Virus record (IMG/VR): IMGVR_UViG_3300034158_000001
Origin: an uncultured virus (IMG/VR IMGVR_UViG_3300034158_000001)
Lineage: Duplodnaviria; Heunggongvirae; Uroviricota; Caudoviricetes
Direction: 5' to 3' (one strand)
DNA length: 64,000 bases
Shown: positions 19,232-57,106 of the stretch, in pieces
Layout of the letters: each line of letters opens with the position of its first letter
Position numbering within the stretch: position 1 is the stretch's first letter
The notes under the pieces: generated by a model
Databases searched by the model: none
Seen by the model: the letters and a program-made list of their open reading frames with translations, nothing else
What the model was told of the DNA's origin: nothing
Program-made: the position numbers and the translations under genes

Positions 19232-19336
19232 CAGAATACTCCTGAAGCTTCAAGCGCCTTGGGAATATGTCGTATAACCAACATACGACTTGACGCTCAG
19301 GAGACAGCGTGCTATAAATGTCTCCCACGAATTAAG

Positions 19337-19411: not shown

Positions 19412-19417
19412 AACAAT

Positions 19418-19492
19418 GCTGGTATGGTGTATTGGATGCACAAGGGTCTTCTAAGCCCTCAAGGGTTGGTTCGAATCCAACTACCAGCACCA
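19418..19492 (+). tRNA. tRNA-Arg(TCT)
   Basis: AGGGT ct TCT aa GCCCT arm; canonical T-arm; CCA. Confidence 0.9.
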
Positions 19493-19582
19493 TATGTGCA
19501 AATAGTTTTAAATAAACGCTTGACAGATTAGATTTGTCGTGTTTTAATACTCATATGAATCAAACACAAAGGAGAGATACAG

Positions 19583-19705
19583 ATGGCAAAGTATTACGAT
19601 GCAACTAAAGAACACGCTCCGGTTGACAAGACACGCTTGAAAGACAGCAAAGGTCGTCACCCAAACAAGAATAAACAGGGCAAGCCACCAAGCGTGGTAA
19701 GCTAA
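19583..19705 (+). CDS. Small basic protein (40 aa)
   Basis: MAKYYDATKEHAPVDKTRLKDSKGRHPNKNKQG...; AAGGAG RBS; TTGACA promoter at 19520. Confidence 0.6.
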   Translation: MAKYYDATKEHAPVDKTRLKDSKGRHPNKNKQGKPPSVVS

Positions 19706-19747
19706 ATGAGACAAGAAATTGATCTTGGCTTCGTATAAAGATTTAAT

Positions 19748-19824
19748 GCACCACTCGTCTACGAGGTTTAGGATATGAGGTTTTCACCCTCATGAACGGG
19801 GTTCGAGTCCCCGGTGGTGTACCA
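19748..19824 (+). tRNA. tRNA-Glu(TTC)
   Basis: TGAGG tt TTC ac CCTCA arm; CCA. Confidence 0.9.
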
Positions 19825-19939
19825 CATTTGAATGATAAATACGTCCAGCTAATCGGCGGAAGGAACAACTCAACAGCCCATTGAAATAGATGGTATTGAG
19901 CCTAAGATGAAAGTCACCGATATTCATTCAAAGCTACAT

Positions 19940-20015
19940 GGCTTATGTTTCCTCTGGGAAGGAAGGCACACTGTCTATGTGTCAGTTGAGGGTTCGAATC
20001 CCTTATAGGTCGCCA
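19940..20015 (+). tRNA. tRNA-Asp(GTC)
   Basis: GCACA ct GTC ta TGTGT arm; G73; CCA. Confidence 0.85.
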
Positions 20016-20019
20016 ATTT

Positions 20020-20093
20020 GCCCTTTTAGTATATTGGTATTACTCGGCCTTTGTAACGCTGAAAACGCAGTTCGATTCTGTGATGGGGCACCA
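20020..20093 (+). tRNA. tRNA-Thr(TGT)
   Basis: Loop tt TGT aa; GCC.../...GGC acceptor; CCA. Confidence 0.8.
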
Positions 20094-20192
20094 AATTTGA
20101 CAGCACCAACGCCTTATGGTATTGTCCGTCACTTAGCTAGGCTTGGCTTATCAGGTAGAAGCCCGTACCTCCAAAACCTGATATAAATTTTT

Positions 20193-20267
20193 AGTTGCTT
20201 GGCCGATTGGATTAGGCAAAGGTCTACGAAGCCTTTTAGAGTGGTTCGATCCCACTAGTGACTACCA
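20193..20267 (+). tRNA. tRNA-Arg(ACG)
   Basis: AAGGT ct ACG aa GCCTT arm; CCA. Confidence 0.88.
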
Positions 20268-20273
20268 AACAAT

Positions 20274-20347
20274 TGCTCGTTAGCATAGTGGTAATGCAGT
20301 CGGCTGATAACCGTCTTAGGGGTGTTCAATTCACTCACGAGCAACCA
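20274..20347 (+). tRNA. tRNA-Ile(GAT)
   Basis: CGG ct GAT aa CCG arm; TGCTCGT/ACGAGCA acceptor; CCA. Confidence 0.85.
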
Positions 20348-20478
20348 AATTCTGCGTAAACCAGAAACAAGATTCCTTTTACGGCTTTTAGAAGGGATCG
20401 GGAAACAAAGGGGTAAGAACTTTAGCGAGTTCGAATGTCTCAGACTAAGCCGTTGAAAGACAACGCGAATACTACAGG

Positions 20479-20554
20479 TGCGGTCAGGTGAACTGGTGGA
20501 CACAGCAGCCTCATAAGCTGAATAAGGTGAGTTCGATTCTCACGTCCGCAACCA
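20479..20554 (+). tRNA. tRNA with CAT anticodon (Met or Ile2)
   Basis: CAGC ct CAT aa GCTG arm; CCA. Confidence 0.85.
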
Positions 20555-20623
20555 AACACCGTGCTCCCCACGGGTACAGCCAGATAGAGTGTGCTGTATA
20601 AATATAGTCTCTATCAGAATTAT

Positions 20624-20700
20624 AGGTAATGATCTCACCGGGCGTGGGTCGCTGGCTGTTAACCAGCAGATGGGAGGTTCGAGTCCTCTATTACCTGCCA
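20624..20700 (+). tRNA. tRNA-Asn(GTT)
   Basis: GCTGG ct GTT aa CCAGC arm; G73; CCA; unusual D-arm. Confidence 0.85.
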
Positions 20701-20706
20701 AACAAA

Positions 20707-20795
20707 GCGTCGTGATTTATGGGGACTGGGATTCCCGCTGGGCTGTAAACCCGGTGTCCAAGACTGCGTGGTTCGATTCCGACCATGACGCACCA
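20707..20795 (+). tRNA. tRNA-Tyr(GTA), atypical
   Basis: CTGGG ct GTA aa CCCGG arm; long variable arm; CCA. Confidence 0.8.
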
Positions 20796-20816
20796 ATTAA
20801 GATGTAGAAGATTTAA

Positions 20817-20890
20817 CTAGATGAAGCGTTACGGTAGCGTACTGGCTTTGGAAGCCTGTGGCGGTGGTTCGACTCCACCCATCTAGACCA
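20817..20890 (+). tRNA. tRNA-Pro(TGG)
   Basis: Loop tt TGG aa; CTAGATG/CATCTAG acceptor; CCA. Confidence 0.88.
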
Positions 20891-20894
20891 ATTT

Positions 20895-20968
20895 GGGCTT
20901 GTGGTAAAACGGGAATACGCGGTCTTTGCAAGTCCGAGTTCAGGGTTCGACTCCCTGCTGGTCCACCA
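20895..20968 (+). tRNA. tRNA-Ala(TGC)
   Basis: Loop tt TGC aa; G3:U70 identity pair; CCA. Confidence 0.85.
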
Positions 20969-20985
20969 AATAAGGAGTGCTTAAT

Positions 20986-21141
20986 ATGAGAGTCCGAGTA
21001 AAACAAACCAAGAAGAAGTTTGCTATGATGCCCTGCGGGTGTTGTGAGAGGGTTTATTACAAGGAGAAGAGTCTGGATAAGCAGACCCTCAAAGAAGCAC
21101 TTGAAGAAATAAGCAATACGCTTGACTGTGACGTCGTGTAG
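20986..21141 (+). CDS. Small protein (51 aa) overlapping the 5' end of tRNA-His
   Basis: TAAGGAG RBS; MRVRVKQTKKKFAMMPCGCCERVYY... Confidence 0.55.
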   Translation: MRVRVKQTKKKFAMMPCGCCERVYYKEKSLDKQTLKEALEEISNTLDCDVV

Positions 21142-21201
21142 TCTGGGACTACCTTCCGGTTGTGACCCGGTTGTTAGAGATCGAAACTCTGCGTCACCCC
21201 A
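21128..21201 (+). tRNA. tRNA-His(GTG), atypical
   Basis: CCGG tt GTG ac CCGG arm; C73; CCA; no encoded G-1. Confidence 0.75.
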
Positions 21202-21207
21202 AATTAT

Positions 21208-21292
21208 GGGCCAGTGGTGGAACTGGTATACACAGCAGTCTTAGAAACTGCCGCCGAAAGGATTGAGGGATCGTGACCCTCTTGGCCCACCA
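21208..21292 (+). tRNA. tRNA-Leu(TAG)
   Basis: GCAGT ct TAG aa ACTGC arm; variable arm; CCA. Confidence 0.9.
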
Positions 21293-21299
21293 AATTATG

Positions 21300-21374
21300 T
21301 CCTTCTTGCCTGAGCGGCTAGGGTGCTGATTGCAAACCAGTAATAGATCGGTTCAACTCCGATAGAAGGCTCCA
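21300..21374 (+). tRNA. tRNA-Cys(GCA)
   Basis: Loop tt GCA aa; U73; CCA. Confidence 0.8.
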
Positions 21375-21379
21375 AACAT

Positions 21380-21455
21380 GCGTGATTCGTATAGAGGTCT
21401 AATACTCTCGGCTTCCACCCGAGTAACCAGGGTTCGACTCCCTGATCCCGCACCA
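21380..21455 (+). tRNA. tRNA-Gly(TCC)
   Basis: CTCGG ct TCC ac CCGAG arm; CCA. Confidence 0.88.
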
Positions 21456-21540
21456 ATTTTGAAGATGGTGGTTAAATCCCAACCCCAAGCGGTTAAATGC
21501 ACCGGCTTGCGATTCAGTGAGAGTATCTTCAATCTCTTTT

Positions 21541-21616
21541 GCATTCTAAGCTAACTAGGTAGAAGCACTGGCTTGAAACCCCAGATGACGTGGATCGATA
21601 CCACGAGAATGCACCA
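21541..21616 (+). tRNA. tRNA-Phe(GAA)
   Basis: Loop tt GAA ac; GCATTCT/AGAATGC acceptor; CCA. Confidence 0.85.
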
Positions 21617-21622
21617 ATAAAA

Positions 21623-21701
21623 TTAGTCACATGTTGGTTCGATTCCAACCTCAGCGCCCTGGTGTGTTAGAGTAGCATTGATGGTTCATGCAGGCTAACC
21701 A
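21623..21701 (+). ncRNA. Circularly permuted tRNA-like RNA (YrlA-like topology)
   Basis: T-arm precedes a loop-closed acceptor-like stem and a D-arm; ends pair as TTAGTC/GGCTAA, followed by CCA. Confidence 0.65.
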
Positions 21702-40592: not shown

Positions 40593-41327
40593 GTGTCTGA
40601 TCTAAATCCATTTGAAAGCGTAGAGTTCTTGAATGTGGCACGTTCTCGTGTCACTGAGCAGTTCAAGGATAAAAGAATCTACGACAAGTATTTACAGATG
40701 CTGCTTAGCGGTAAAGTTGAACTACAGAATGTCATAAAAGACACAATGCAACTACGTTCTATTGACACTGCTGTTGGAGTCCAGTTGGACGTTATTGGTG
40801 AGATTGTAGGCCGCTCTCGCGGCCTAGTAACATCTGAAATCTTCACCTACTTCGGGTTTGACGGAGCCCTGCAAGCTGACTCATTCTCTTCGACCACAGA
40901 CCCAACTGTTGGCGGTCAGTGGTACAGTTTAAATGCTCCAGTTGGAATTAGCCGTGAACCGTCAGACGACGAGTACAGACTAATTCTGAAGGCTAAGATT
41001 ATTAAGAACAGAACAATGGCAAGGCCGGAAGATGTTATTTCGGCCTATAAGTTTCTGTTCGGGGCATCACAAGTAACAATTGAAGAGATTTCACCTGCTG
41101 AAGTTCGTATCGGAATTGGTAAGATTCTGAACAACGTTGAACGTGGACTCCTATTTGATCTTGGTGGTGCAGGTCAATTACTACCAAAACCCGCTGGCGT
41201 TAGTTACTCTTACACAGAGTTCCAAGCAGGCAGGGTATTTGCTACAGATGGGTTTCCCGGTGCAAGGGGCACTGGTGATCTGAGTGATCCATCTGTTGGT
41301 GGATTCCTATCCAACCTAATTTCATAA
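40593..41327 (+). CDS. Baseplate protein (DUF2612-like)
   Basis: TAVGVQLDVIGEIVG, DDEYR and LPKPAGV motifs. Confidence 0.8.
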   Translation: MSDLNPFESVEFLNVARSRVTEQFKDKRIYDKYLQMLLSGKVELQNVIKDTMQLRSIDTAVGVQLDVIGEIVGRSRGLVTSEIFTYFGFDGALQADSFSSTTDPTVGGQWYSLNAPVGISREPSDDEYRLILKAKIIKNRTMARPEDVISAYKFLFGASQVTIEEISPAEVRIGIGKILNNVERGLLFDLGGAGQLLPKPAGVSYSYTEFQAGRVFATDGFPGARGTGDLSDPSVGGFLSNLIS

Positions 41328-41337
41328 AGGAACTAAA

Positions 41338-42894
41338 ATGGCTGACATTATTAAATATGACATGACAGATATTTGGGCCACAGCCGGTGACGTTGTAGCT
41401 CCAGACTCTGCAAAGATCAAAGCTGGCTGGGGAGTTGAAGTTGTCCCACGTCAGTGGTGGAACTGGTTTGAAAATAGACAAGACCAGAACATCGCGTATA
41501 TGCTTCAAAAAGGCTTCCCAGAGTGGGACGCAACAACTGAGTACATCATTAACAAGTCTTACGTCCAGCGTAATGGTGTTGTCTATAAAGCAACAGCGAC
41601 AAGTACAAACTCTGACCCAGTTCTTCTAACAAGCTGGGTAAAGGCGTTTGTTGACTCCACTCCGTACCTTGAAGCAATTAAGACCCTTGCAGTAACACCT
41701 AACACACAGTCCTACATTGACGGTGCTGGTGTTGCACAGAATGCAGCCTCCAGCAGCTTTGGACGCCAGATTGGTAACGTTGCTGATGCATCTGCTGCAA
41801 GGGCTTTGATTTCTGCTCAACTTGCCAACGCAAACTTGACAGGCTTGTCTGGTGTTTCTGGTTCTTCCAACAACTTGCCATACTTTGTTGGTGCTGGTGC
41901 GATGGCTGTTACAACCTTCACTGGTTTTGCGCGTACCCTGCTAGATGACGCTGACGCTGCTGCTATGCGTGCCACACTTGGAGTTGATAGTGCTGTTGAT
42001 GTATCTGCCGCCTTGTCTGCTGGTCTTGCTACAAAGCAACCACTTGACGCAACCCTGACAGCTCTTGCTGGAACAACTACAGCTAACAACACACTTTCTT
42101 ACTGGACTGGTGTAGATACAACAACTACAACACCTCTTACATCGTTCGCTCGTACTCTTCTTGATGACAGTGACGCTGCTACAGCAAGAACCACTCTTAG
42201 TGTGTACAGTACAACAGAAAGTGATACAAACCTAACAAACGGTTTGGCTACCAAGCAACCTCTGAATACGTTGCTCACAAGTATTTCTACACTTAACCCA
42301 GCAGCCAACCAGATGATCTACTACACAGCAACCAACACAGGCGCTACAACAGCCCTGACAGCGTTTGCCCGTAGTATGCTTGATGACCCTGATGCTGCCA
42401 CAGTTCGTGCAACAATCGGCTCTAACGATGCTGCAAACTTGACAACTGGTACATTGCCTCTTGCACGCCTACCCTCCACATTGACTGGTATCAACGCTGC
42501 TACAGCGACAGCTCTTCAAACTCCACGCACAATTCAAGGTGTAGCATTTGACGGAACTGCAAACATTACCCTGTCTGTGGTTGATAAAGATTCTTCGGTT
42601 GGTGCTGCTGCTATCCCTGCTGGTACAACTGCCCAAAGACCATCTAACGGTGCGGGTAAGTTCAGGTTCAACACAGATACAAGTCGTGCTGAAATCAACA
42701 ATGGAACAGCATGGGGTTCTCTAGGTGGTGCGTCTGGTGGTGGTAACGATTCGGTCTTCTATTTGAATGATCAGAACGTAACAGCAAACTTCACAGTTCC
42801 AGTAGGACAGAATGCAATGTCTGCTGGTCCGATCACAATCGCAAACGGTGTTACAGTAACTGTTTCTAACGGTTCTGTTTGGACAATCGTTTAA
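41338..42894 (+). CDS. Tail fibre protein 1
   Basis: Baseplate-binding N-terminus (WA..G..P..K..GW..NW..NRQD), repeated FARTLLDD.DA shaft units. Confidence 0.85.
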   Translation: MADIIKYDMTDIWATAGDVVAPDSAKIKAGWGVEVVPRQWWNWFENRQDQNIAYMLQKGFPEWDATTEYIINKSYVQRNGVVYKATATSTNSDPVLLTSWVKAFVDSTPYLEAIKTLAVTPNTQSYIDGAGVAQNAASSSFGRQIGNVADASAARALISAQLANANLTGLSGVSGSSNNLPYFVGAGAMAVTTFTGFARTLLDDADAAAMRATLGVDSAVDVSAALSAGLATKQPLDATLTALAGTTTANNTLSYWTGVDTTTTTPLTSFARTLLDDSDAATARTTLSVYSTTESDTNLTNGLATKQPLNTLLTSISTLNPAANQMIYYTATNTGATTALTAFARSMLDDPDAATVRATIGSNDAANLTTGTLPLARLPSTLTGINAATATALQTPRTIQGVAFDGTANITLSVVDKDSSVGAAAIPAGTTAQRPSNGAGKFRFNTDTSRAEINNGTAWGSLGGASGGGNDSVFYLNDQNVTANFTVPVGQNAMSAGPITIANGVTVTVSNGSVWTIV

Positions 42895-48604: not shown

Positions 48605-48793
48605 TTACTTCCAGCGGCTTACATAAGTCTGCTTGCCACAACTTGGGCAGGTGATGCGATACCAACTATCCCCTCCACCCCCATAATCTCTGGAGAAGCC
48701 TTCTGTGATGTCATGATATCCGTACTCAAGTTTTGCTTGACAGGTCTGACATACACACTGTTTAGTTGCAGCTTGTTCAACTACACGTACCAT
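48605..48793 (-). CDS. Small zinc-ribbon protein
   Basis: CQTC...CPSC motif. Confidence 0.65.
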   Translation of the reverse strand: MVRVVEQAATKQCVCQTCQAKLEYGYHDITEGFSRDYGGGGDSWYRITCPSCGKQTYVSRWK

Positions 48794-49941
48794 TATTCCT
48801 CCTTCAGCAAGTATGCGTTGCTGATAGCTTTGAACGAGAAGTCACGCTTAGTGCTCTTGTAGACGGAGCCTTCACGGAACTTACCTTTGACGCCACTTGG
48901 ACCTTCAGCACGAAGCAGAAGCTCAGCAACAGTCGGAGCTTTGAGCACGCCAGTGTAGTTGACTGGGACGTGTTTAACACCCTGGTCAGTACAGAATTTG
49001 ATGCGTTCAGCAGTAAGCATGTAGCGCTGTTCATCAATCAGGAAAACGTCGTAGCAGAAGAATGTGTTATTGTCCAGACCTTCAAAGTTCTTCTGGATAG
49101 ACGGACCACACATTTCACCCTGAATGGCGATGTTACGGCCATCACGGCGAATAGCTTCAATCAGTCCAGCTTCTGTCACCATCTGAGTGAAGGCATTGTC
49201 GTCCTTCTTGATCACACGCTCCCACTTGCAGCGATGTACAGCCATGCCGCGATTCCACCACTGATCAAACCAGCTACGAATAGTAGAAACCAGAGAACGT
49301 TTTTCGTCCTCCATCCGAAAGCCCACGTTACGGCTAGCCACACCAGCCACCCCGTCACGAACAAACGCAGTGAGAGAGCTTCCGTCCAGCTTAAAAGATT
49401 CTTCAAATTCTTCTCCATCGGCTACAGCCTTCAAGTATAGGTTAGTGATGTTCTGTACGCGAGTCTGATCAGTCTTTGGTACAAACTTAGGGAAACCCAA
49501 TGCAGACTTACCAGTCTTGACGCCAGTGCCACCAGTGTTATTCATGCTGGCTTCTTCAGCCTTCTCATACTTGACAACACCCAAGAAGTCTGTCATGTCA
49601 TAGCCAACCTCTGCGTTAAGGCCAGTTACAGACAATGGGATCAAGTAGCCTTGAGAAAGTTGCTTACGCAGCTTCATGGTTTTTACACGAGCGTGGGTAC
49701 GTCCATCTACGTTGTGGAGCAGTTTAGAACTCCAGTTGGCTGCATCAGCGAAATAAGGACGCTCTGTGTCTAGCAGAGAATCTACCTCAAAATATACAGC
49801 TTTGGTGAGTGCGGGCTCGTACAAACCCTTCTGCACGACCACCTGCCAGCCGCCAATGAGAGCCAGCTCAATGCGGTCAGCACCTTCAATAGGAAGTAGT
49901 TGATCGATCAGTACGATACGAGCGAGGGAACGTTCAGCCAT
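48793..49941 (-). CDS. RNA ligase, Rnl2/DRB0094 family
   Basis: N-terminal OB module (PIEGADRIE..GWQVVV), KTDQTRVQN, KLDGSS, QGE, REGSVYK and FKAISN.YL motifs. Confidence 0.88.
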   Translation of the reverse strand: MAERSLARIVLIDQLLPIEGADRIELALIGGWQVVVQKGLYEPALTKAVYFEVDSLLDTERPYFADAANWSSKLLHNVDGRTHARVKTMKLRKQLSQGYLIPLSVTGLNAEVGYDMTDFLGVVKYEKAEEASMNNTGGTGVKTGKSALGFPKFVPKTDQTRVQNITNLYLKAVADGEEFEESFKLDGSSLTAFVRDGVAGVASRNVGFRMEDEKRSLVSTIRSWFDQWWNRGMAVHRCKWERVIKKDDNAFTQMVTEAGLIEAIRRDGRNIAIQGEMCGPSIQKNFEGLDNNTFFCYDVFLIDEQRYMLTAERIKFCTDQGVKHVPVNYTGVLKAPTVAELLLRAEGPSGVKGKFREGSVYKSTKRDFSFKAISNAYLLKEE

Positions 49942-49972
49942 TTTTAAATCTCCTTGTGTTTTGATGTGGTGG

Positions 49973-50032
49973 AGTCTACAGGATGTTGGAATCGTGTCAA
50001 CCACTTGACAGAAAAACTTTTCATGGTAATCT
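49973..50032. promoter_or_regulatory. Back-to-back promoters: leftward TTGACA-N16-TAGACT and rightward TTGACA-N16-TAATCT
   Basis: Direct reading; rightward TSS ~50039 coincides with the first stem of ncRNA copy 2. Confidence 0.7.
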
Positions 50033-50039
50033 GCACACA

Positions 50040-50323
50040 TCGCAGGAGAGACATGTCGGGCGAAAGCCTCCCTCACCGGCCTGCGGGAGTACACCCCATG
50101 AAGAGGATGCTGTAGGGGTCACTGAGGTTGAATGAGAGAACAGTGCAGCGATGACCTCTATAGAGGGAAGGCTCTCAATCTATAGCGTCCCATGACGCCG
50201 ACTTGCGATCTCAATTTTGGATAGCAAAGGATAAACCTCAAGGCATGTCGAGGCGATTCAGTTCGTATGGCAAGCCTTGGGATAGGTTTATCTCGACAAT
50301 ACGAAACTCATTTTGGATAGGAG
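50040..50323 (+). ncRNA. Putative large structured ncRNA, copy 2
   Basis: Homologous to 17196-17481, with compensatory changes. Confidence 0.75.
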
Positions 50324-50973: not shown

Positions 50974-51164
50974 ACAATGAGCTAATGGCAGCATTTAAGT
51001 CGTTGCGGGTTTCTGAGCGAACAACTGTACTACAAGACCTGGGCTATAGCATGCACCCAGCAGTCCATGAAACTGGTGCAGAGTTCGCCACACGTGTCCT
51101 ACGTCAAGTGAGTAGTGATGGAGTTGTACGCGAGCTTGAGAACGCTATGCGGAGGTTTCAGTAG
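50970..51164 (+). CDS. Hypothetical protein
   Basis: 64-aa operon ORF. Confidence 0.6.
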   Translation: MNNELMAAFKSLRVSERTTVLQDLGYSMHPAVHETGAEFATRVLRQVSSDGVVRELENAMRRFQ

Positions 51165-51520
51165 TGGAGCATAGATTCGAGATTGACCACACACGGAATA
51201 TCGATCCCTGGGCACGTACAGACTTCATGATGGCTAAACCAAAGGTGATAGCTGTTGACTTTGATGAAACGATCAGCGACAATGAGAGTGCGTGGCTGCT
51301 ACTGATGCTGATACTTGAGCGTCATGGCTACCATGTGGTAGTCTGTACATGGAGAAAACCTACAACCTATCCAGAAGATTTACAATTTCTGGTTGACAAG
51401 GGCTTCAAGGTGTATTACACTTCAGGCCAAGCAAAACAAACATACATGGAAAAGCAGGGTGTGAAAGTCTCCATCTGGATTGACGATAACCCTTTCTCTA
51501 TCCTTAACAGCTCCAATTAG
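51164..51520 (+). CDS. HAD-family phosphatase (Pnkp 3'-phosphatase-like)
   Basis: IAVDFDETI, VCTWR, K and IWIDD motifs. Confidence 0.75.
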   Translation: MEHRFEIDHTRNIDPWARTDFMMAKPKVIAVDFDETISDNESAWLLLMLILERHGYHVVVCTWRKPTTYPEDLQFLVDKGFKVYYTSGQAKQTYMEKQGVKVSIWIDDNPFSILNSSN

Positions 51521-51528
51521 GAGGTTTT

Positions 51529-51927
51529 ATGTACGGTGCAATTCATCTTGACGAACTGATCAACTGCGGTGATGTAAACCTTGTGAAGGAGTTCTTCGGT
51601 GACTCTAGCTGGCGAATCCTGCCACTAGATGCTAGGCCAGAAGACAAGTTTGTTGCTGAGATGGTATTCGGGAGACTGGATCACGATATGTTCCCAGGCA
51701 GTACTGTGGCCCACGGCCATATCTACAATGACCCTCGTGGAATCTTTCGTGACGGGGACAGGGTTCGTACATCTGTTGTGAAGCAGATCGTTGAGATCGG
51801 TGGAGAGCTGTACATCGAAACCCGTAACACAATGTACAAACTGATTGAGGCTCCTGCACGTCAGTCACCTATTCGCATTGACACAATCATGCGTGATCAT
51901 GACGAACGTGGTTTTCAACCTAAATAA
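51529..51927 (+). CDS. Hypothetical protein
   Basis: G.IY.D.RG.F.DG..VRTS...ETRNTMY motif. Confidence 0.65.
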   Translation: MYGAIHLDELINCGDVNLVKEFFGDSSWRILPLDARPEDKFVAEMVFGRLDHDMFPGSTVAHGHIYNDPRGIFRDGDRVRTSVVKQIVEIGGELYIETRNTMYKLIEAPARQSPIRIDTIMRDHDERGFQPK

Positions 51928-51940
51928 GTGAGGTGTTTAA

Positions 51941-52180
51941 ATGTCTAAAGGTCTTGAGTACCAATTCTGCACTGGTTGGGAAAGCTGGGATGAGGTAGAC
52001 ACCTTCTGCCTTCAGTTCACTGAGGCGAGACTTCGTCCTGAAATTGCGGCTATTGTTGGTTGGGACGTTGCTGAAGTCATGGCGATTGACTGTTCTAGCA
52101 ATATTGTATCGTTTTACTTGGCAGACGGTAGTGAGCAAGAATACCCGTTTACTGCACAATTAGTGGTTGACAAGGCGTAA
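51941..52180 (+). CDS. Hypothetical protein
   Basis: 79 aa, GAGG RBS. Confidence 0.6.
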   Translation: MSKGLEYQFCTGWESWDEVDTFCLQFTEARLRPEIAAIVGWDVAEVMAIDCSSNIVSFYLADGSEQEYPFTAQLVVDKA

Positions 52181-52194
52181 AAACCTGTTACAAT
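52167..52194 (+). promoter_or_regulatory. Promoter TTGACA-N16-TACAAT
   Basis: Direct reading, upstream of the coiled-coil gene and RNA unit. Confidence 0.8.
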
Positions 52195-52226
52195 GACCAA
52201 ATCAAATATCAAAGGAGAGAATCAAA

Positions 52227-52844
52227 ATGGCACAGATTTCAATTACACGCGCTTTGGCTGAAGTAAAATCCCTGAATGACCGTATCGAGAAAGCCACTCG
52301 ACAAGGCGTCTTCCTAACTGTTACTGTTGGGGGCAAGACCACTAATGGCGTTGCACTCCAGGACGCTCAGAACCAGTTGAAGTCCAACCTTCAATCGATC
52401 CAAGACCTGATTGCTCGTCGCCAAGCAGTCAAGACTGCAATTATCCGTTCGAACTCTGTGGCTACTGTCACAATCAACGGTAAAGAGCTTACTGTGGCTG
52501 AGGCCATTGAGCGTAAAGGCTCCATCGACAAAGAGCGTGCTCTGATGGCTGTAATGCAGCAGCAACTGGCCCAGGCACGTTCAGTTGTAGAACGTAATAA
52601 CGTTCAGATGCAAGGCCGTATCGACACAATGCTCCAGGCTGCTGTTGGTAAGGAGCGTAAGGCTACCGAAGAAGAACTGGAAGCCATCAGCAAACCGTAC
52701 ACTGCTTCTAACGTCACTGCCACACTGGACCCTAACGGGCTGGAAGCCGTGATCGCTAAGCTTGAGGCTGAAATCAACGGCTTCTTGTTTGAGGTTGATT
52801 TCGCTCTGTCTGAGGCTAACGCCAAGACTCTGATCGAGGCGTAA
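52227..52844 (+). CDS. Coiled-coil protein (possibly DIP1984/DUF6847-related)
   Basis: All-helical; ITRALAEVK, AIIRSN..T.ING..LTVAEAI and ALSEANA.T.I segments; highly biased codons. Confidence 0.75.
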   Translation: MAQISITRALAEVKSLNDRIEKATRQGVFLTVTVGGKTTNGVALQDAQNQLKSNLQSIQDLIARRQAVKTAIIRSNSVATVTINGKELTVAEAIERKGSIDKERALMAVMQQQLAQARSVVERNNVQMQGRIDTMLQAAVGKERKATEEELEAISKPYTASNVTATLDPNGLEAVIAKLEAEINGFLFEVDFALSEANAKTLIEA

Positions 52845-52855
52845 CAAAAGTTTAC

Positions 52856-53163
52856 TCATGCTGCGACGAATTGCCTAAATTCACGCAACCCATTCCTCGG
52901 GGGTATATCCGGGGAGCCTATTAAGAATGGTATTCTAACCAAATCTAAGCATAGATTGCGGGTCGTTGTACCCGCTACGCATTGACTAAGATCAAAGTTC
53001 AAATAGGAAAGCTGCAAAGCTAAAAGATTAAGGGCTTTAGAGCCATCTCAACCTTTTAAAGCTTTAACCAGTATCGATACAAAGCTTCTCCAAATCTTGG
53101 ATACACGTTGAGACGTATCTGCGTGACGGACGCTGGCAATGCACCGAGCTGTCGTTAGCATGA
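52856..53163 (+). ncRNA. Putative ~310-nt structured RNA with an AAAG(C/T)T-repeat loop
   Basis: Nested long-range stems join the two ends; several hairpins; no ORF; followed by a terminator. Confidence 0.7.
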
Positions 53164-53171
53164 ACCCCATT

Positions 53172-53202
53172 AAAGCCCTGACCAGAGATGGTTGGGGTTT
53201 TT
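53172..53202 (+). terminator. Rho-independent terminator
   Basis: AAAGCCCTGACC agagat GGTTGGGGTTTT. Confidence 0.8.
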
Positions 53203-53222
53203 CTCATTTATAAGGAGACGCA

Positions 53223-53681
53223 ATGTACTACGTGTATGTAGGGTGGCTAGGTGATAAAATTATGTACATCGGTAAGGGTAAGAACGACAGAGACTTGCAC
53301 CTAAACTCTGGTTGTAGCCACGTCTACGAAGCCAACAGACTGCACTTCTTAGGCGGGCGCCTTGACGTTGAAAGGATTGCTGAAAACCTTGAAGAACTTG
53401 ACGCATTCGAACTTGAGACGCACTTAGTGCATGAGGCTAAACCAGCCTGGAACAAGCAGGCAGTTGGAAATTCACACAAGAAGAGTACAGCAACAAGTGA
53501 GTATCTTGGCGTGAGCTTCTACAAAAACAAGGCAGTAAAGCCTTGGAGGGCTTGGTACAAAACATCAAATAAGAAGCACCATATCGGGTACTTCAATACA
53601 GAATTGGAAGCTGTTCTGGCAAGGGATAACTACTTGAAAGATAACGGAATTATAGGCAGAATCAACAGCCCCTTGGCCTGA
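53223..53681 (+). CDS. GIY-YIG plus AP2-domain putative homing endonuclease
   Basis: YVY...YIGKG...R, E...P.WN; C-terminal SEYLGVSF...WRA...IGYF.TELEA.LARD. Confidence 0.75.
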   Translation: MYYVYVGWLGDKIMYIGKGKNDRDLHLNSGCSHVYEANRLHFLGGRLDVERIAENLEELDAFELETHLVHEAKPAWNKQAVGNSHKKSTATSEYLGVSFYKNKAVKPWRAWYKTSNKKHHIGYFNTELEAVLARDNYLKDNGIIGRINSPLA

Positions 53682-53710
53682 CGGTCTTGGGGCTTTTCTC
53701 ATTTCAGGGG

Positions 53711-53738
53711 TTGACAAAGGGTGTGGATAGTGTAGAAT
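53711..53738 (+). promoter_or_regulatory. Promoter TTGACA-N16-TAGAAT
   Basis: Direct reading, just after a terminator hairpin at 53667-53698. Confidence 0.8.
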
Positions 53739-53768
53739 CGCCACATAGACAAACAACGGAGAGTCACC

Positions 53769-53858
53769 ATGTACTTCAAATGTAAGAAATGCGGAACGTC
53801 TGGGTTTGCATGCTTCGGCCCTGCAACCGTATGTCCATTTTGCAGGGAGCCTTTGTAA
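53769..53858 (+). CDS. 29-aa zinc-finger micro-protein
   Basis: MYFKCKKCGTSGFACFGPATVCPFCREPL; GGAGAG RBS; TAATG coupling to next gene. Confidence 0.6.
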   Translation: MYFKCKKCGTSGFACFGPATVCPFCREPL

Positions 53859-54205
53859 TGAAAACGTTCAATAACCAGCTTGAGATTGGTAAACCTGCCA
53901 TGATCATTAACACCCGATTGCCAGAGAATCTGTTCCTAGTTGGCGGGATCGTAACTGTTGAGGAGTTTGCATCAGTTGGCTCTGATGTGTCCAAGTACTT
54001 TGATCTTTCAAATGGATCAACCATGAACAAAAATAAACACCCTAACCTTGTAGTTGTTAGTGGGTGTAAGCTCACTGGTAAAAGTGAGGGAGGCAATATC
54101 TCAATGCTTCCTAGCTACGCACTCTTCAGTGCTAAAAACCTGATGCCTCTTCCACCGCTAGAAGAGAAAGAAATCCAAAAAGAAAAGGAGCTTGAGTTCT
54201 CATGA
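53858..54205 (+). CDS. Hypothetical protein
   Basis: Start at MKTFNNQL via TAATG. Confidence 0.65.
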   Translation: MKTFNNQLEIGKPAMIINTRLPENLFLVGGIVTVEEFASVGSDVSKYFDLSNGSTMNKNKHPNLVVVSGCKLTGKSEGGNISMLPSYALFSAKNLMPLPPLEEKEIQKEKELEFS

Positions 54206-54420
54206 TCACTGAACATCAGATGTTTGACATGCTTGATGAATTGGAGCGGAGAGTAAGAGTGCGTGACTCCTCACAGAGTGTACGTCTGCAAGAAGCTAAG
54301 GGTCCACACGGGACAGTCTACATCGTACACATTGAGAACGCTCTGATGCACGATCAGTACGAAATCGATGCAGTGACCAAATCCTGGATTCGCAAGATTA
54401 TTGTACCGGAGCCGGTATGA
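54202..54420 (+). CDS. Hypothetical protein
   Basis: 72-aa operon ORF. Confidence 0.6.
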   Translation: MITEHQMFDMLDELERRVRVRDSSQSVRLQEAKGPHGTVYIVHIENALMHDQYEIDAVTKSWIRKIIVPEPV

Positions 54421-54533
54421 TCCCAAGAAATCCCTTGGCAGGTCCGAACAGACGTGTTAATGTACCGAAGGTAGAACGTGACCGTACAAAGTATCGTCGA
54501 AAACGAAAGCATAAAAGGAGAGAAGAATCATGA
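54417..54533 (+). CDS. 38-aa basic micro-protein, ArfA-like
   Basis: MIPRNPLAGPNRRVNVPKVERDRTKYRRKRKHKRREES; ATGA overlaps on both sides. Confidence 0.6.
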   Translation: MIPRNPLAGPNRRVNVPKVERDRTKYRRKRKHKRREES

Positions 54534-55044: not shown

Positions 55045-55232
55045 GTATTTCATTGTTTGTTATAGTGAAAGACAAAACTACCTATGGCAATAGCATTTCC
55101 ACAGCCATTACCTCCCATGTGATTAAGTTCGAAAATCGTGCTGAAGCCCTTGAAGCTCAACAAGAGTTGCAAGATCACTACGAAAGCAGTAAGATGGTCA
55201 TAAAAGTTACATTACTGGAGGGAACTGCTTGA
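55041..55232 (+). CDS. Hypothetical protein
   Basis: Start MSISLF, GGAGG RBS. Confidence 0.55.
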   Translation: MSISLFVIVKDKTTYGNSISTAITSHVIKFENRAEALEAQQELQDHYESSKMVIKVTLLEGTA

Positions 55233-57106
55233 CATCTATTGAAATTGCAGAGAAGTATGGGATCGACCTGTACCACTATGGTAAGGTCGAGTGCCCTAAG
55301 TGTGCTGAGAAAGGCATGGACCGAAGTGGTGATAACCTAATGGTGTATGGCACAGATACTGATGGCCGTCACAAAGGTGCTCACTGCTTCGGTGGTTGTG
55401 GTGGTTTCACTATTCCGTCTGAGGAATGGCTGGAAGAAAATGGTGTGGTTGAAGAGCAGGAGTACAATATCGTGGGAGCAGAGTTTAACGAAGATATTCA
55501 CAACAAGATGAAGGAAGTGACAACCCTTGACTCTAAAGGTTATCGCGGGATCAAGAAGGAGACTACTAGCTTCTTTGGTGTACGTCATGAAATCAACACA
55601 TCAAGTGGTGATGTTGCTGTCCAGTACTACCCTTGCACAATGGAAGACGAAAACGATGCGGGGTTTATGCTCACAGGTTACAAGCGTCGCCAACACCCAA
55701 AAGACTTTAAAGGAGCACTTGGTGAGACTGGGCGTGAGTGTCAATTGTTTGGGCAATTCAGATTCCTGCGTCAACGCGGTAAGTACTGCCTGATTGTTGG
55801 TGGCGAAGTTGATCAGCTCTCTGCGTACCAGATGTTGGCCGATCAGAACGCACGAAGTAACGCACAGAAGGGTACAGCATACGACCCAACTCCAGTTGTA
55901 TCCCCAACCATCGGTGAGACTGGATGTGAAAAGCAGATCGTGATGCAATACGAGTGGTTTAACCGCTTCGAACGAATCATCGTCTGTATGGACAACGACG
56001 AAGCCGGTCGTAAAGCCACTGAGCTAGTTTGTAAAGCTCTACCGAAGGGTAAGGCATACGTCATGGAAATGTCCATGAAAGACCCAAACAGCTACATCTG
56101 GGACAAAGATAAAGGAGTTCCTGTAAACAAGGAGTTCAACTTCGTTCAAGAGTTCTACAAGGCAGTGCCATACACGCCGAGTGGTATTGTTGGTTCGGGT
56201 AGCTTGATGGGGCTGATGAAGGCAGCAGCGGTCATCCCTAAGATTCCTTTGCCAAGGTACATGCACCGAGTGCAAGACATGATGGGTGGTGGTATCCCTC
56301 TGAAGGTTATCGTCAACCTGGGTTCTGCATCTGGTACTGGTAAGTCCACGCACGTTGATGAATGTGTCTACCACTGGATTTTCAACAGTCCTCATAAGCC
56401 GGGTGTCCTGTCGCTTGAAAGCGATTGTGCACAGTACGGTAACAAGATGCTCTCTCGCCACATCGGCAAGAAGATCGACTTGATGACGGACCAACAGAAG
56501 ATTGCATTCTTCAACTCTCAAGAGGCTGAGGACGCTGCACAAGACTTGTTCTTCAAGGAGGATGGCAGTCACCGCTGGCATTTGATTGAGGAGCGTGATG
56601 GCTCTCTGGATGACATCAAAGAGAAGATCATGAACCTGATCATTGCATGTGAGTGCAAAGTGATCATCATTGACCCTCTTCAAGACATCATGGACGGTAT
56701 GAGCAATGAAGAGCAGGCTGTCTTCATGAAGTGGCTGAAAGGCATGGTGAAGAGCCATGACGTGAGCTTCATTCTGATCAACCACGTTCGTAAGAGCGCT
56801 GGTGGCAGCAAGGCAAACTCTGCTGGTGCTGACCTGTTCGAAGAAGACTTCCAAGGGTCATCTGCAATCTTTAAATCGGCTGCATGCAACCTGTTGTTCA
56901 CACGTAACAAAGAGTCTCCTAACGAGGTAGAGCGCAACATCACCAAGATGAAGATGACCAAGTGTCGTTGGACTGGTAATACAAGCCCTAACGCAGGTAT
57001 GTACTACTACGATAACGCCACTCACACTGTTCATGATCTTGATGACTTCCTTGACAGAAACCCAGCTATGAAGGCTGAGTATGAGGCACGTGACCGAGAG
57101 GAGTGA
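55229..57106 (+). CDS. DNA primase-helicase (T7 gp4-like)
   Basis: Zn finger CPKC, TOPRIM (GGEVD, DNDEAG), SF4 helicase (ASGTGKST, IIIDP, NHVRK, GSSAI, KCR). Confidence 0.92.
   Translation: MTSIEIAEKYGIDLYHYGKVECPKCAEKGMDRSGDNLMVYGTDTDGRHKGAHCFGGCGGFTIPSEEWLEENGVVEEQEYNIVGAEFNEDIHNKMKEVTTLDSKGYRGIKKETTSFFGVRHEINTSSGDVAVQYYPCTMEDENDAGFMLTGYKRRQHPKDFKGALGETGRECQLFGQFRFLRQRGKYCLIVGGEVDQLSAYQMLADQNARSNAQKGTAYDPTPVVSPTIGETGCEKQIVMQYEWFNRFERIIVCMDNDEAGRKATELVCKALPKGKAYVMEMSMKDPNSYIWDKDKGVPVNKEFNFVQEFYKAVPYTPSGIVGSGSLMGLMKAAAVIPKIPLPRYMHRVQDMMGGGIPLKVIVNLGSASGTGKSTHVDECVYHWIFNSPHKPGVLSLESDCAQYGNKMLSRHIGKKIDLMTDQQKIAFFNSQEAEDAAQDLFFKEDGSHRWHLIEERDGSLDDIKEKIMNLIIACECKVIIIDPLQDIMDGMSNEEQAVFMKWLKGMVKSHDVSFILINHVRKSAGGSKANSAGADLFEEDFQGSSAIFKSAACNLLFTRNKESPNEVERNITKMKMTKCRWTGNTSPNAGMYYYDNATHTVHDLDDFLDRNPAMKAEYEARDREE

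What the first reader, a model, noticed from the sequence alone, without database searches (positions are those of the whole stretch)
52167..53202. Self-contained unit: coiled-coil protein plus ~310-nt RNA with a repeat-laden loop (candidate RNP system)
Seen: a promoter (52167-52194), a 205-aa all-helical gene with highly biased codons, 310 nt with no ORF, then a terminator (53172-53202). The ends of the non-coding part pair through nested stems: TCATGCT.CGAC/GTCG..AGCATGA, ATTGCC/GGCAAT and TCACGCA/TGCGTGA. Side arms are CCATTC/GAATGG, AATCTA/TAGATT, GCGGGT/ACCCGC and GATAC.ACGT/ACGT.ATC. A CTAAGAT/ATCTTGG stem closes a ~100-nt A-rich loop with quasi-periodic units: AAAGTTC AAATAGG AAAGCTGC AAAGCT AAAAGATT AAGGGCTTT AGAGCC...AAAGCTTT...AAAGCTTC, including five exact AAAG(C/T)T. 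Inference: the layout suggests an RNA that binds many copies of one protein, most simply the adjacent coiled-coil protein (which resembles the DIP1984/DUF6847 family), forming a ring or filament RNP, a decoy or an RNA antitoxin. I know of no described function for this pairing.
Basis: partly seen in the sequence, partly recalled or inferred. Interest (0 to 1): 0.87.

Follow-up and report, generated by a model that had tools for sequence, protein, structure and literature searches.

The report
Phage RNA-protein cassette, RNA likely circular
In this Pseudomonas phage a gene for a small helical protein is followed by a 318-base intricately folded RNA; the same pair recurs in very different phages, and in environmental RNA samples the RNA appears joined end to end, so it looks like an undescribed phage RNA-protein device.

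Summary
A near-consensus promoter (52167-52194), a 205-aa gene (52227-52844), about 320 non-coding bases and a terminator (53172-53201) form one unit.

The non-coding part is a structured RNA. On 19 relatives, 21 of 62 pairs show compensatory changes, against 7.7 in shuffles. The three nested closing stems hold.

The gene+RNA cassette recurs in about 15 phage lineages, including T5-like, FelixO1-like, Vibrio and Bacillus phages. A covarying "AAAU-helix...helix-CUG" module stands in 62 of 68 distinct 3' flanks, against 20 of 1360 shuffles. No Rfam 15 family matches, and none of eight literature searches found a description.

In metatranscriptome contigs the RNA has sharp ends near 52851-52855 and 53167/53168. 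Two studies carry a head-to-tail joint. One 359-nt contig fits a closed 329-nt cycle, so the RNA is probably circular.

The protein folds like PDB 3kdq (the DIP1984-type fold) and is predicted to dimerise.

Function is unknown. My best guess is a stable circular RNP, scaffold or sponge, acting early in infection.

Earlier agents of this scan had already flagged the T5-like copy of this RNA. The pseudoknots, the processing and the circle evidence are new here.

The parts
52167..52194 (+). sigma-70-type promoter of the cassette (TTGACA, 16 nt, TACAAT, with TG extension)
   Evidence: 11 of 12 matches. A contig of run X2 matches the window only from 52180 onward; its letters before that point lie on nothing in the stretch.
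52227..52844 (+). Gene for a 205-aa protein. PHROG 1491 names it 'tail fiber protein', a name for which I saw no evidence. It has a DIP1984/3kdq-like fold and is a predicted homodimer.
   Evidence: phrog_1491, E 1.9e-72; pLDDT 94.7, pTM 0.72; 3kdq; dimer score 0.64 against best control 0.00; 2206 clusters at 50% identity with E <= 0.001
52851..53168 (+). Excised structured RNA, about 318 nt. The ends are known only to within a few bases: 5' end at 52851-52855, 3' end at 53167/53168. It is joined head-to-tail in two RNA libraries.
   Evidence: contigs begin at 52855 with 2-3 extra T and end at 53167/53168. Joints 53168>52855 (X7) and 53167>52855 (X3); relatives read TTT-CTCATG where the window reads TTTA-CTCATG.
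52856..52868 (+). P1 5' strand. Pairs with 53150-53163 and brings the two RNA ends together.
   Evidence: 13 pairs, 7 with compensatory changes, 98.4% of cells paired. A P1 is present in distant lineages.
53150..53163 (+). P1 3' strand
52870..52875 (+). P2 5' strand (ATTGCC). Pairs with 53135-53140 (GGCAAT).
   Evidence: 6 pairs, 1 compensatory, 100% paired
52881..52887 (+). P3 5' strand (TCACGCA). Pairs with 53120-53126 (TGCGTGA).
   Evidence: 7 pairs, 5 compensatory
52888..52915 (+). H-type pseudoknot. ACCC (52888-91) pairs with GGGT (52901-04) in the loop of hairpin P4 (TCCTCGG 52894-900 with CCGGGGA 52909-15).
   Evidence: P4: 2 of 7 pairs compensatory. PK1: 1 of 4 counted. A second compensatory change, in phage Bitten, is visible in alignment A4 but was not counted because of register.
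52978..53095 (+). A-rich central region with five AAAG(C/T)T (at 52994, 53008, 53016, 53058, 53081) and a variable hairpin. Candidate multi-site binding platform.
   Evidence: Related repeats such as TCAAAG, TCAGAG and GTTACT occur in other lineages, but the k-mer test reaches p below 0.05 in only 3 of 19 sequences.
53096..53100 (+). Px 5' strand (CTTGG, preceded by conserved AAAT). Pairs with 53144-53148 (CCGAG, followed by CTG). The helix crosses P2 and P3, so it is a pseudoknot, and it is the family's signature.
   Evidence: 5 pairs, 100% of cells paired. (19 different helix versions across lineages). (62 of 68 flanks against 20 of 1360 shuffles).
53144..53148 (+). Px 3' strand
53172..53201 (+). 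Intrinsic terminator of the cassette. It is not part of the accumulated RNA.
   Evidence: RNA contigs stop at 53167/53168.

Best explanation
This is a two-part phage cassette that moves as a unit.

(1) One promoter drives an mRNA for a dimeric protein of DIP1984-type fold. The 3' UTR of that mRNA is a roughly 318-nt RNA of a widespread, uncatalogued family.

(2) The RNA folds into a stack of three nested helices (P1-P3) locked by two pseudoknots, with an A-rich arm that carries short AAAG-type repeats.

(3) P1 holds the two ends side by side. The RNA is cut out about 6 nt after the stop codon and 3 nt before the terminator. It then exists as a separate species, apparently more abundant than the mRNA.

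(4) The two ends are joined into a covalent circle.

(5) Inferred: the circle acts together with the co-encoded protein as a long-lived RNP, either a scaffold or a sponge for a host factor, early in infection.

Inferred candidates for the enzymes: a single-strand endonuclease such as RNase E for the cuts, and for the joining step this phage's own DraRnl-type RNA ligase (48793-50094, minus strand) or a host ligase.

How far each step is supported: (1) and (2) are shown. (3) has indirect support. (4) is probable, about 0.65. (5) is a guess, about 0.4.
For: STRUCTURE. 62 pairs, 96.3% of cells paired, 21 pairs with compensatory changes against 7.7 +/- 1.6 in shuffles (0 of 500 reach it). Sliding the partners gives 4-9 such pairs and 33-43% paired.

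FAMILY AND LINKAGE.
- 52 phage records match the whole unit at 72-86% nucleotide identity.
- 744 phage records hold the protein.
- All 6 distant records inspected have an unannotated gap of 335-488 nt right after the gene.
- A profile of the Pseudomonas RNA hits T5-like flanks at E 2.8e-8 to 7e-5 and L055 at 4e-8. A T5-like profile hits the window only at 52960-53067, E 1.8e-6.
- The AAAU-helix...helix-CUG module stands in 62 of 68 distinct flanks. Controls: 20 of 1360 shuffles, 1 of 68 reverse complements, 2 of 68 upstream stretches. The helix comes in 19 compensating versions.
- A closing P1 follows 'CUG' in 16 of 18 representatives as computed; for the other 2 I found it by eye.

PROCESSING AND CIRCLE (4 metatranscriptome runs from 4 studies).
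- Contigs begin at 52855 and end at 53167/53168 in X2 and X3.
- Contigs over the RNA have k-mer depth 1554-2490 (X2) and 1705-5367 (X3). Contigs over the CDS have 3.7-142 and 205-1910.
- Low-depth contigs bridge CDS into RNA: 52446-52884 in X1 and 52460-52884 in X2. Gene and RNA are therefore contiguous on one molecule.
- Head-to-tail joints occur in 2 of 4 runs: X7 (53168>52855 plus TTT) and X3 (53167>52855 plus TT, depth 251).
- The X7 contig of 359 nt starts and ends in mid-RNA. Using the sequence of phage 16Q (L021), its two ends overlap by 30 nt, which leaves a 329-nt cycle equal to that phage's RNA length.
- None of the fetched genomic loci has a tandem copy. A junction pattern found 0 metagenome contigs, while 7 contigs hold the gene.

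LIGASE. The ORF at 48793-50094 matches TIGR02306 RNA_lig_DRB0094 at 173.8 bits, cut-off 151.

PROTEIN DIMER. Score 0.64 against best of 3 controls 0.00. That mark was reached by 20 of 30 proteins solved as pairs of one chain and by 1 of 23 solved as single chains. The runs agree in at least 98% of contacts, and partner pLDDT is at least 88. A relative, 3kdq, is solved with several chains, so the pass may partly reflect likeness to it.
Against: - Only contigs were available, laid at 85% likeness, with no raw reads. The tool warns that contig depth cannot rank genes and that joints laid at under 95% likeness often come from other organisms.
- 2 of 4 runs (X1, X2) show no joint.
- In X3 the joint's depth (251) is about 7% of the body's depth (3600-3900).
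- Template switching by reverse transcriptase on an RNA whose ends are held together could mimic a joint.
- No DNA run was laid for comparison.
- An RNA ligase is not universal. 3 of 5 other carrier phages have PF09414 above cut-off and 1 has RtcB. The weak hit in T5 is its NAD-dependent DNA ligase.
- Nothing shows that the protein binds the RNA. The protein family is not basic: median pI 6.0, n = 60.
- The repeat signal is weak in most lineages. The k-mer test reaches p below 0.05 in 3 of 19 sequences, and p is 0.053 in the window.
Confidence: 0.5

Rival explanations
1. A stable linear non-coding RNA that works on its own, as an RNA-only assembly or scaffold like the phage-associated ROOL and GOLLD RNAs. 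On this reading the neighbouring gene merely shares a promoter, and the head-to-tail joints are library or assembly artefacts.
For: Strong structure, and no protein-binding evidence. Often next to phage tRNA genes, as I recall for ROOL and GOLLD. 2 of 4 runs show no joint. Another agent of this scan saw a head-to-tail joint on an unrelated phage RNA, so such joints may be a recurrent artefact, or else a recurrent biology.
Against: Gene and RNA stay adjacent, in the same order and on the same strand, in about 15 lineages while every other neighbour differs. That is hard to explain by a shared promoter alone. The X7 contig is a closed cycle with no branch at the junction. No match to the ROOL or GOLLD Rfam models.
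Confidence: 0.2
2. A cis-acting 3' UTR element that stabilises the upstream mRNA or is the operator through which the protein regulates its own synthesis.
For: Gene and RNA appear co-transcribed: there is no terminator between them, and contigs bridge 52446-52884. The RNA starts 6 nt after the stop codon.
Against: RNA-library contigs end precisely at the RNA's borders, and contigs over the RNA have far higher depth than contigs over the CDS. In one lineage the RNA starts 242 nt after the gene. About 300 nt with two pseudoknots is far more than a stabiliser needs.
Confidence: 0.1
3. A new self-processing ribozyme that cuts itself out and ligates its own ends.
For: 94 invariant positions, many in unpaired stretches, and a pseudoknotted core. 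Apparent circularisation without a universal ligase gene.
Against: The ends lie at the far end of P1, 10-19 bp from the conserved core, and P1 length varies. The flanks do not repeat the sequences at the RNA ends. No known self-cleaving motif at E <= 10.
Confidence: 0.07
4. An RNA antitoxin or decoy of the type III toxin-antitoxin kind, with the protein as the toxin.
For: A protein gene beside a repeat-bearing RNA.
Against: The RNA is downstream rather than upstream of the gene. The repeats are 6-8 nt motifs in a large fold, not tandem units of about 36 nt. The protein is a helical 3kdq-like dimer with no nuclease match. The cassette sits in lytic phages among early genes.
Confidence: 0.03
5. 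A DNA-level element, such as a replication origin, packaging site or iterons, in front of the primase/helicase region.
For: A-rich short repeats, and a position about 2 kb upstream of the primase/helicase gene.
Against: Strand-specific compensatory changes including G-U pairs. The module is absent on the reverse complement, 1 of 68. The genomic context differs in other phages. RNA-library contigs match the borders of the folded unit.
Confidence: 0.02

Closest known systems
ROOL and GOLLD large ornate RNAs of phages and prophages (Rfam families; recalled; cryo-EM preprint 10.1101/2024.12.08.627333 seen only as a search listing with the start of its abstract)
   Same: Large, highly structured, phage-borne RNAs, often beside tRNA genes, of unknown function.
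   Different: No match to their Rfam models. This RNA is much smaller (about 290-390 nt). It has a strictly linked protein gene. It shows head-to-tail joints.
PDB 3kdq, 'functionally unknown conserved protein' of Corynebacterium diphtheriae (I recall this as DIP1984; CDD 'septicolysin-like' in one phage record)
   Same: Best structural match of the 205-aa protein: VIA-align Z 10.1 with 151 of 152 residues aligned, Foldseek probability 1.0.
   Different: 14-17% identity. The phage protein is about 50 residues longer. No Pfam or NCBIfam model matches. The profile against PDB sequences gives only E 0.082. The function of 3kdq is unknown as well.
Ro60-Y RNA and OLE RNPs (bacterial structured RNAs with dedicated protein partners; recalled)
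   Same: A non-coding RNA whose paired 5' and 3' ends form a long stem, encoded next to its protein partner. Ro/Y modules sit next to RtcB ligase genes (recalled).
   Different: No sequence or model match: YrlA scores only as a weak hit inside a tRNA array. The protein folds are unrelated.
Natural and engineered circular RNAs made by end-joining across a stem: archaeal circular RNAs, permuted tRNA genes, the 'Tornado' design (all recalled), and DucS of Bacillus altitudinis (PMC10504365, seen only as a search listing with the start of its abstract)
   Same: A terminal stem brings the two ends together for ligation, and the product is a stable circle.
   Different: No bulge-helix-bulge motif or flanking ribozymes were found. 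The RNA is encoded by lytic DNA phages. It carries a large conserved pseudoknotted fold and a partner gene.
Type III toxin-antitoxin systems (ToxIN; recalled)
   Same: A protein gene beside a repeat-bearing RNA, and a link to phage biology.
   Different: Gene order, repeat architecture and protein fold all differ (see membership test).
phi29 prohead RNA (recalled)
   Same: A phage-encoded structured RNA that acts with phage proteins.
   Different: That RNA is 174 nt, restricted to phi29-like phages and forms a packaging-motor ring. There is no sequence or context similarity, and the gene here lies among early genes.

Membership tests
Any Rfam 15 family (including ROOL, GOLLD, tmRNA, RNase P, group I/II introns, 6S, Y RNA, self-cleaving ribozymes) | Match to the family's covariance model | tested here: not met
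   Window 51000-54500 at E <= 10: only 4 chance-level hits of 13-19 bits, none inside the RNA. Six distant loci at E <= 0.1: tRNAs and chance hits only, none in the 3' gaps.
tmRNA | tRNA-like domain with a tag reading frame, detectable by ARAGORN; SmpB partner | tested here: not met
   ARAGORN finds nothing at 52845-53202. The 'smpB' label on the upstream gene in phage Pyxpy01 rests on 15 bits against a cut-off of 130, and the window's ORF has no hit.
DIP1984 / DUF6847 protein family | Fold like PDB 3kdq | tested here: met
   VIA-align Z 10.1, rmsd 6.3, 151 of 152 residues aligned, with the next entries at Z <= 8.0. Foldseek E 0.01, probability 1.0. The tool warns that helical models often reach Z 7-13 by chance.
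DIP1984 / DUF6847 protein family | Match to the Pfam or NCBIfam sequence model | tested here: not met
   No such hit for the window protein at E <= 0.1 (Pfam) or E <= 1 (NCBIfam). No such hit for any of 60 family members at E <= 0.01. Only a language-model lead: a cluster at score 0.88 in which 16% of members carry PF20935.
Type III toxin-antitoxin (ToxIN-like) | Tandem direct repeats of about 30-40 nt upstream of an endoribonuclease toxin gene (recalled definition) | tested here: not met
   The RNA lies downstream, is a single copy, and has only 6-8-nt motifs. The protein has no nuclease family match. PADLOC was not searched.
Viroid-like or retrozyme circular RNAs | Self-cleaving ribozyme motifs and RNA-templated rolling-circle replication | tested here: not met
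   No hammerhead, twister, HDV, hairpin or similar motif at E <= 10. The RNA is encoded once in double-stranded DNA phage genomes.
Covalently circular RNA (as a physical class) | Head-to-tail junction in RNA that is absent from DNA, and resistance to exonuclease | tested here: inconclusive
   Junction contigs in 2 of 4 RNA runs, one of them a closed 329-nt cycle. 0 junctions in metagenome contigs, 7 of which hold the gene. No raw reads, no matched DNA run and no biochemistry.
DraRnl-type (Rnl5) ATP-dependent RNA ligase, for ORF 48793-50094 | Match above cut-off to TIGR02306, with an N-terminal OB domain and a nucleotidyltransferase domain | tested here: met
   TIGR02306 at 173.8 bits against cut-off 151. 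PF21189 OB domain plus PF09414. A role for this ligase in joining this RNA was not tested.

The most novel reading that the evidence does not exclude
Lytic DNA phages of hosts from Bacillus to Pseudomonas make a covalently circular, doubly pseudoknotted RNA from the 3' UTR of the mRNA of its own partner protein. This would be a natural circular RNP of phages. In phages such as this one, the 'orphan' nick-sealing RNA ligase (DraRnl/Rnl5 type), whose natural substrate is unknown as far as I recall, closes the circle. The circle's lineage-specific short repeats are the docking sites of the dimeric DIP1984-fold protein.
Probability: 0.35. Interest if true: 0.95.

Novelty: categorically new. Interest (0 to 1): 0.88.

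Why it matters
- If it holds, this is a new, very widespread class of phage RNA. The protein family alone has 2206 clusters at 50% identity and occurs in 744 deposited phage genomes, including the model phage T5 (gene T5.085). Its partner protein has until now been mislabelled 'tail fiber'.
- It would be, to my knowledge, the first conserved circular RNA encoded by DNA phages.
- It would give a biological role to a fold of unknown function (3kdq/DIP1984), and perhaps a substrate for phage RNA ligases.
- It is directly testable in T5 with E. coli K-12.
- Large conserved RNAs with invariant pseudoknotted cores have repeatedly turned out to be ribozymes or central RNP machines.
- A stable circular RNA scaffold from phages would also be of practical interest for making circular RNA in bacteria.

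Tried and rejected
- RFAM AND ARAGORN. Neither gave anything for the RNA.
- 'SMPB' LEAD. The label in phage Pyxpy01 is spurious: 15 bits against a cut-off of 130.
- T5 'RNAX'. This annotated stable RNA 2 kb away is unrelated; neither nhmmer profile hits it.
- PROQ/FINO GENE. It is adjacent to the cassette only in the FelixO1-like phage, 1 of 5 records.
- PHAGE RNA LIGASE AS A UNIVERSAL PARTNER. Rejected. PF09414 is above cut-off in 3 of 5 other carriers and RtcB is present in 1. T5's weak hit is its NAD-dependent DNA ligase.
- COVARIANCE MODEL. I used nhmmer profiles and a scripted module search instead.
- LOCUS SEARCH WITH ALIGNMENT A3. It failed because no stretch was conserved enough. I searched with single proteins instead.
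- JUNCTION PATTERN IN METAGENOME CONTIGS. 0 hits. The control pattern for the gene gave only 7 contigs, so this is weak evidence.
- UNBIASED 5-MER REPEAT TEST. Significant (p below 0.05) in only 3 of 19 sequences from different lineages.
- A CONSERVED SMALL ORF IN THE A-RICH REGION, READ BY EYE. Rejected. Stop positions are not conserved, and nucleotides including third positions are invariant.
- RUNS X1 AND X2. They showed no head-to-tail joint.
- LITERATURE. Eight searches were run, on DIP1984; septicolysin with phage; T5 stable RNAs; phage structured RNAs; circular RNA with phage (three wordings); and 'T5.085'. None found a description of this RNA or this pairing. I read passages of PMC10690425, which has 0 mentions of tail fiber, phage T5, Pseudomonas or Felix. 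I read passages of 10.1101/2022.07.19.500677, which has 0 mentions of phage and deliberately avoids DNA-encoded circles. Their supplements were not examined. The catalogue of about 8,500 candidate viral RNAs in the first paper may contain this RNA unnamed.
Full report
WHAT THE WINDOW IS.
The 64-kb window is a lytic Pseudomonas syringae-type myophage of the Otagovirus/Flaumdravirus kind. 52 GenBank phage records match 52100-53300 at 72-86% identity. It carries 16 tRNA genes at 18.3-21.5 kb, a primase/helicase gene at 55229-57106 and an RNA ligase gene at 48793-50094 on the minus strand.

THE OBSERVATION.
The promoter (52167-52194, 11 of 12 consensus matches), the 205-aa ORF (52227-52844) and the terminator (53172-53201) are as described. 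The 358 nt after the stop codon fold better than all 100 shuffles, z = -3.87. They match no Rfam family even at E <= 10.

Codon bias of the gene is moderate: ENC 43.8, rank 12 of 66 ORFs.

Five AAAG(C/T)T motifs lie in 124 nt where 0.13 are expected. 0 of 5000 shuffles reach five.

THE RNA IS REAL AND STRUCTURED.
All 21 fetched loci of close relatives (L001-L019, L021, L022) carry the same non-coding stretch, and the more distant phage Bitten (L020) keeps short conserved blocks of it. The alignment shows blocks of invariant sequence separated by stretches of varying sequence and length.

On 19 distinct sequences, a structure of 62 pairs has 96.3% of cells paired and 21 pairs with compensatory changes. 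Shuffles give 7.7 +/- 1.6, and 0 of 500 reach the observed value. Sliding the partners by 1-3 columns gives 4-9 such pairs and 33-43% paired.

So are the hairpins at 52939-52972, but only as a variable region.

Two pseudoknots take their place:
- ACCC (52888-91) pairs with GGGT in the loop of hairpin P4.
- CTTGG (53096-53100) pairs with CCGAG (53144-48). This helix (Px) crosses P2 and P3.

THE CASSETTE IS WIDESPREAD.
The protein is PHROG 1491, named 'tail fiber protein' there. It has homologues in 744 phage records and in 2206 clusters at 50% identity, nearly all about 205-215 aa long. No Pfam family covers it.

In every distant record I opened, the gene is followed on the same strand by an unannotated gap, while all other neighbours differ:
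- T5-like SP15 and T5 itself (gene T5.085).
- FelixO1-like pSal-SNUABM-01.
- Bacillus phage BM15.
- Erwinia phage pEp_SNUABM_01.
- Vibrio phage Chester.
- Pseudomonas phage Bitten.

The gaps are about 335-490 nt.

Sequence profiles link the groups in both directions. The Pseudomonas profile hits T5-like flanks at E 2.8e-8 to 7e-5 and an intermediate contig (L055) over model positions 2-251. The T5-like profile hits the window only inside the RNA, E 1.8e-6.

The signature 'AAAU - 5-6-bp helix - about 50 nt - complementary strand - CUG' stands in 62 of 68 distinct 3' flanks. Controls give 20 of 1360 shuffles, 1 of 68 reverse complements and 2 of 68 upstream stretches. Many of the 68 flanks are close relatives. 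By my informal grouping they represent about 15 lineages, of which 12 pass the strict test and the rest pass with a variant tail or only 4 pairs.

The helix occurs in 19 mutually compensating versions, for example CTTGG/CCGAG, CCTAGA/TCTAGG, CCACTG/TAGTGG, CTCTG/CAGAG and CTTCG/CGAAG.

Directly after 'CUG' comes the 3' strand of a closing helix P1 of 10-19 bp. Its 5' partner lies just after the gene and is usually followed by GAAA. The RNAs are about 290-390 nt long.

T5-like RNAs fold with the same closing helix.

Earlier agents of this scan had already flagged the T5-like copy as a large unannotated RNA travelling with this protein (e1-196896, e1-120037, e1-136072). I reached the same conclusion from the Pseudomonas side with independent tests.

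EXPRESSION, PROCESSING AND THE HEAD-TO-TAIL JOINT.
Thirteen runs on record as RNA hold parts of the stretch. I laid four metatranscriptome runs from four studies on 51500-54000. Only contigs were available, so the tool's cautions about depth apply.
- In X2 and X3, contigs begin at 52855 (with 2-3 extra T) and end at 53167/53168.
- Contigs over the RNA have k-mer depths of 1554-2490 (X2) and 1705-5367 (X3). Contigs over the CDS have 3.7-142 and 205-1910.
- Low-depth contigs bridge CDS and RNA (52446-52884 in X1, 52460-52884 in X2). The two are therefore contiguous on one molecule, and there is no terminator between them.
- Two runs carry a joint that 'goes back 314': 53168 to 52855 with TTT between (X7), and 53167 to 52855 with TT between (X3, depth 251).

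Relatives read TTT-CTCATG where the window reads TTTA-CTCATG. The extra T's are therefore genome-encoded, and the 5' end is near 52851.

The X7 contig is 359 nt, begins and ends in mid-RNA, and matches phage 16Q's RNA (L021). With that sequence its two ends overlap by 30 nt, which is k-1 for 31-letter words. That leaves a 329-nt cycle, exactly the length of that phage's RNA from TTT to CCCC. This is my arithmetic.

A closed cycle with no branch at the junction is what a circular or concatemeric RNA gives. No genomic locus has a tandem copy. A junction pattern found 0 metagenome contigs, while only 7 hold the gene.

Caveats:
- No raw reads and no matched DNA run.
- Likeness threshold of 85%.
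- No joint in 2 of 4 runs.
- Possible template switching by reverse transcriptase.

I put the circle at about 0.65.

HOW THE ENDS MIGHT BE MADE (INFERENCE ONLY).
Both borders lie in short unpaired stretches at the far end of P1 and are followed by U/A-rich triplets (G|UUU and C|AUU). As I recall, this resembles the RNase E preference.

RNase E leaves a 5'-phosphate and a 3'-OH, the substrate of ATP-dependent RNA ligases. The phage encodes a DraRnl-type ligase (TIGR02306, 173.8 bits).

Of five other carrier phages:
- Three have a PF09414 ligase above cut-off.
- BM15 has RtcB.
- T5 has none; its weak hit is the NAD-dependent DNA ligase.

 A phage ligase therefore cannot be the general answer.

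The distance of the ends from the conserved core, and the variable length of P1, argue against self-processing by the core.

THE PROTEIN.
AlphaFold gives a confident model: pLDDT 94.7, pTM 0.72. It consists of long helices capped by a small sheet.

The best structural match by both methods is 3kdq, an uncharacterised C. diphtheriae protein. VIA-align gives Z 10.1 with 151 of 152 residues aligned. Foldseek gives E 0.01. A profile against PDB sequences gives E 0.082.

A homodimer is predicted. The score is 0.64 against a best of 3 controls of 0.00. That mark was reached by 20 of 30 proteins solved as pairs of one chain and 1 of 23 solved as single chains. The runs agree in at least 98% of contacts, and pLDDT is at least 88. 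Since 3kdq is solved with several chains, part of this pass may be likeness.

The family is not basic (median pI 6.0), but R8, K14, R19, R65, K69 and K97 are conserved.

Nothing here shows RNA binding.

THE REPEATS.
Other lineages carry related short repeats in the same central region:
- TCAAAG in Bacillus and several metagenomic phages.
- TCAGAG in L065.
- GTTACT in L080.

 An unbiased 5-mer test reaches p below 0.05 in only 3 of 19 sequences.

If real, lineage-specific repeat units favour a partner that co-evolves with the RNA, such as the phage's own protein, over a universal host factor. That is inference.

VERDICT.
Its core claim stands and extends to a very large phage-wide family absent from Rfam 15 and from the papers I could search. 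That core claim is a self-contained gene plus structured RNA with no described function.

The detailed fold needed correction. The 'many copies, ring or filament, antitoxin' ideas remain untested.

The new and most surprising element is the evidence that the RNA is excised and joined head-to-tail.

Noticed in passing
window 53223-53681 (+): A free-standing homing-endonuclease-like ORF of 152 aa. It has an N-terminal GIY-YIG-like motif (read by eye) and an AP2-type DNA-binding region matching 'HNH endonuclease' PHROGs. It sits directly after the cassette's terminator. Relatives lack it: an RNA-library contig joins 53181 to 53686, skipping 504 nt, and KIL1 and Pyxpy01 have other genes there.
   Followed up: partly
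window 48793-50094 (-): DraRnl-type ATP-dependent RNA ligase: TIGR02306 at 173.8 bits against cut-off 151, with a PHA02142 OB domain plus the RNA_ligase domain. It lies 2 kb from the RNA and is a candidate for closing the circle. Its natural substrate is unknown as far as I recall.
   Followed up: partly
window 20873-21640 (+): ARAGORN calls a permuted 'tmRNA*' spanning several tRNA genes inside the 16-tRNA cluster (18269-21455). It overlaps seven called tRNAs and is most likely a false positive.
   Followed up: no
L023 1774-2502 (Salmonella phage pSal-SNUABM-01): In this FelixO1-like phage a ProQ/FinO-domain gene (PF04352, 31.5 bits against cut-off 27) overlaps the start of the cassette's protein gene. 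An RNA chaperone gene therefore sits beside the RNA cassette. It was seen in 1 of 5 carrier records searched.
   Followed up: partly
L090 1349-2067 (phage T5, record positions 40848-41566): T5 annotates a 719-nt 'RNAX, stable RNA with unknown functions' next to tRNA-Arg, 2 kb from T5.085. It is unrelated to the RNA studied here (no nhmmer hit), but it is another uncharacterised T5 RNA.
   Followed up: partly
L001 2278-2502 (phage Pyxpy01) and L002 3351-3379 (phage KIL1): Two doubtful public annotations. The 'smpB / SsrA-binding protein' label on a 74-aa ORF upstream of the cassette rests on 15 bits against a cut-off of 130. A predicted promoter is annotated inside the structured RNA of KIL1.
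   Followed up: yes
L057, L058, L061, L063, L080, L026 (3' of the RNA): In several lineages a tRNA gene (annotated in L026) or, by eye, a tRNA-like T-arm follows the RNA within a few tens of bases. In BM15 and Chester the cassette directly follows a tRNA array. tRNA-processing enzymes may therefore define the RNA's ends there.
   Followed up: no
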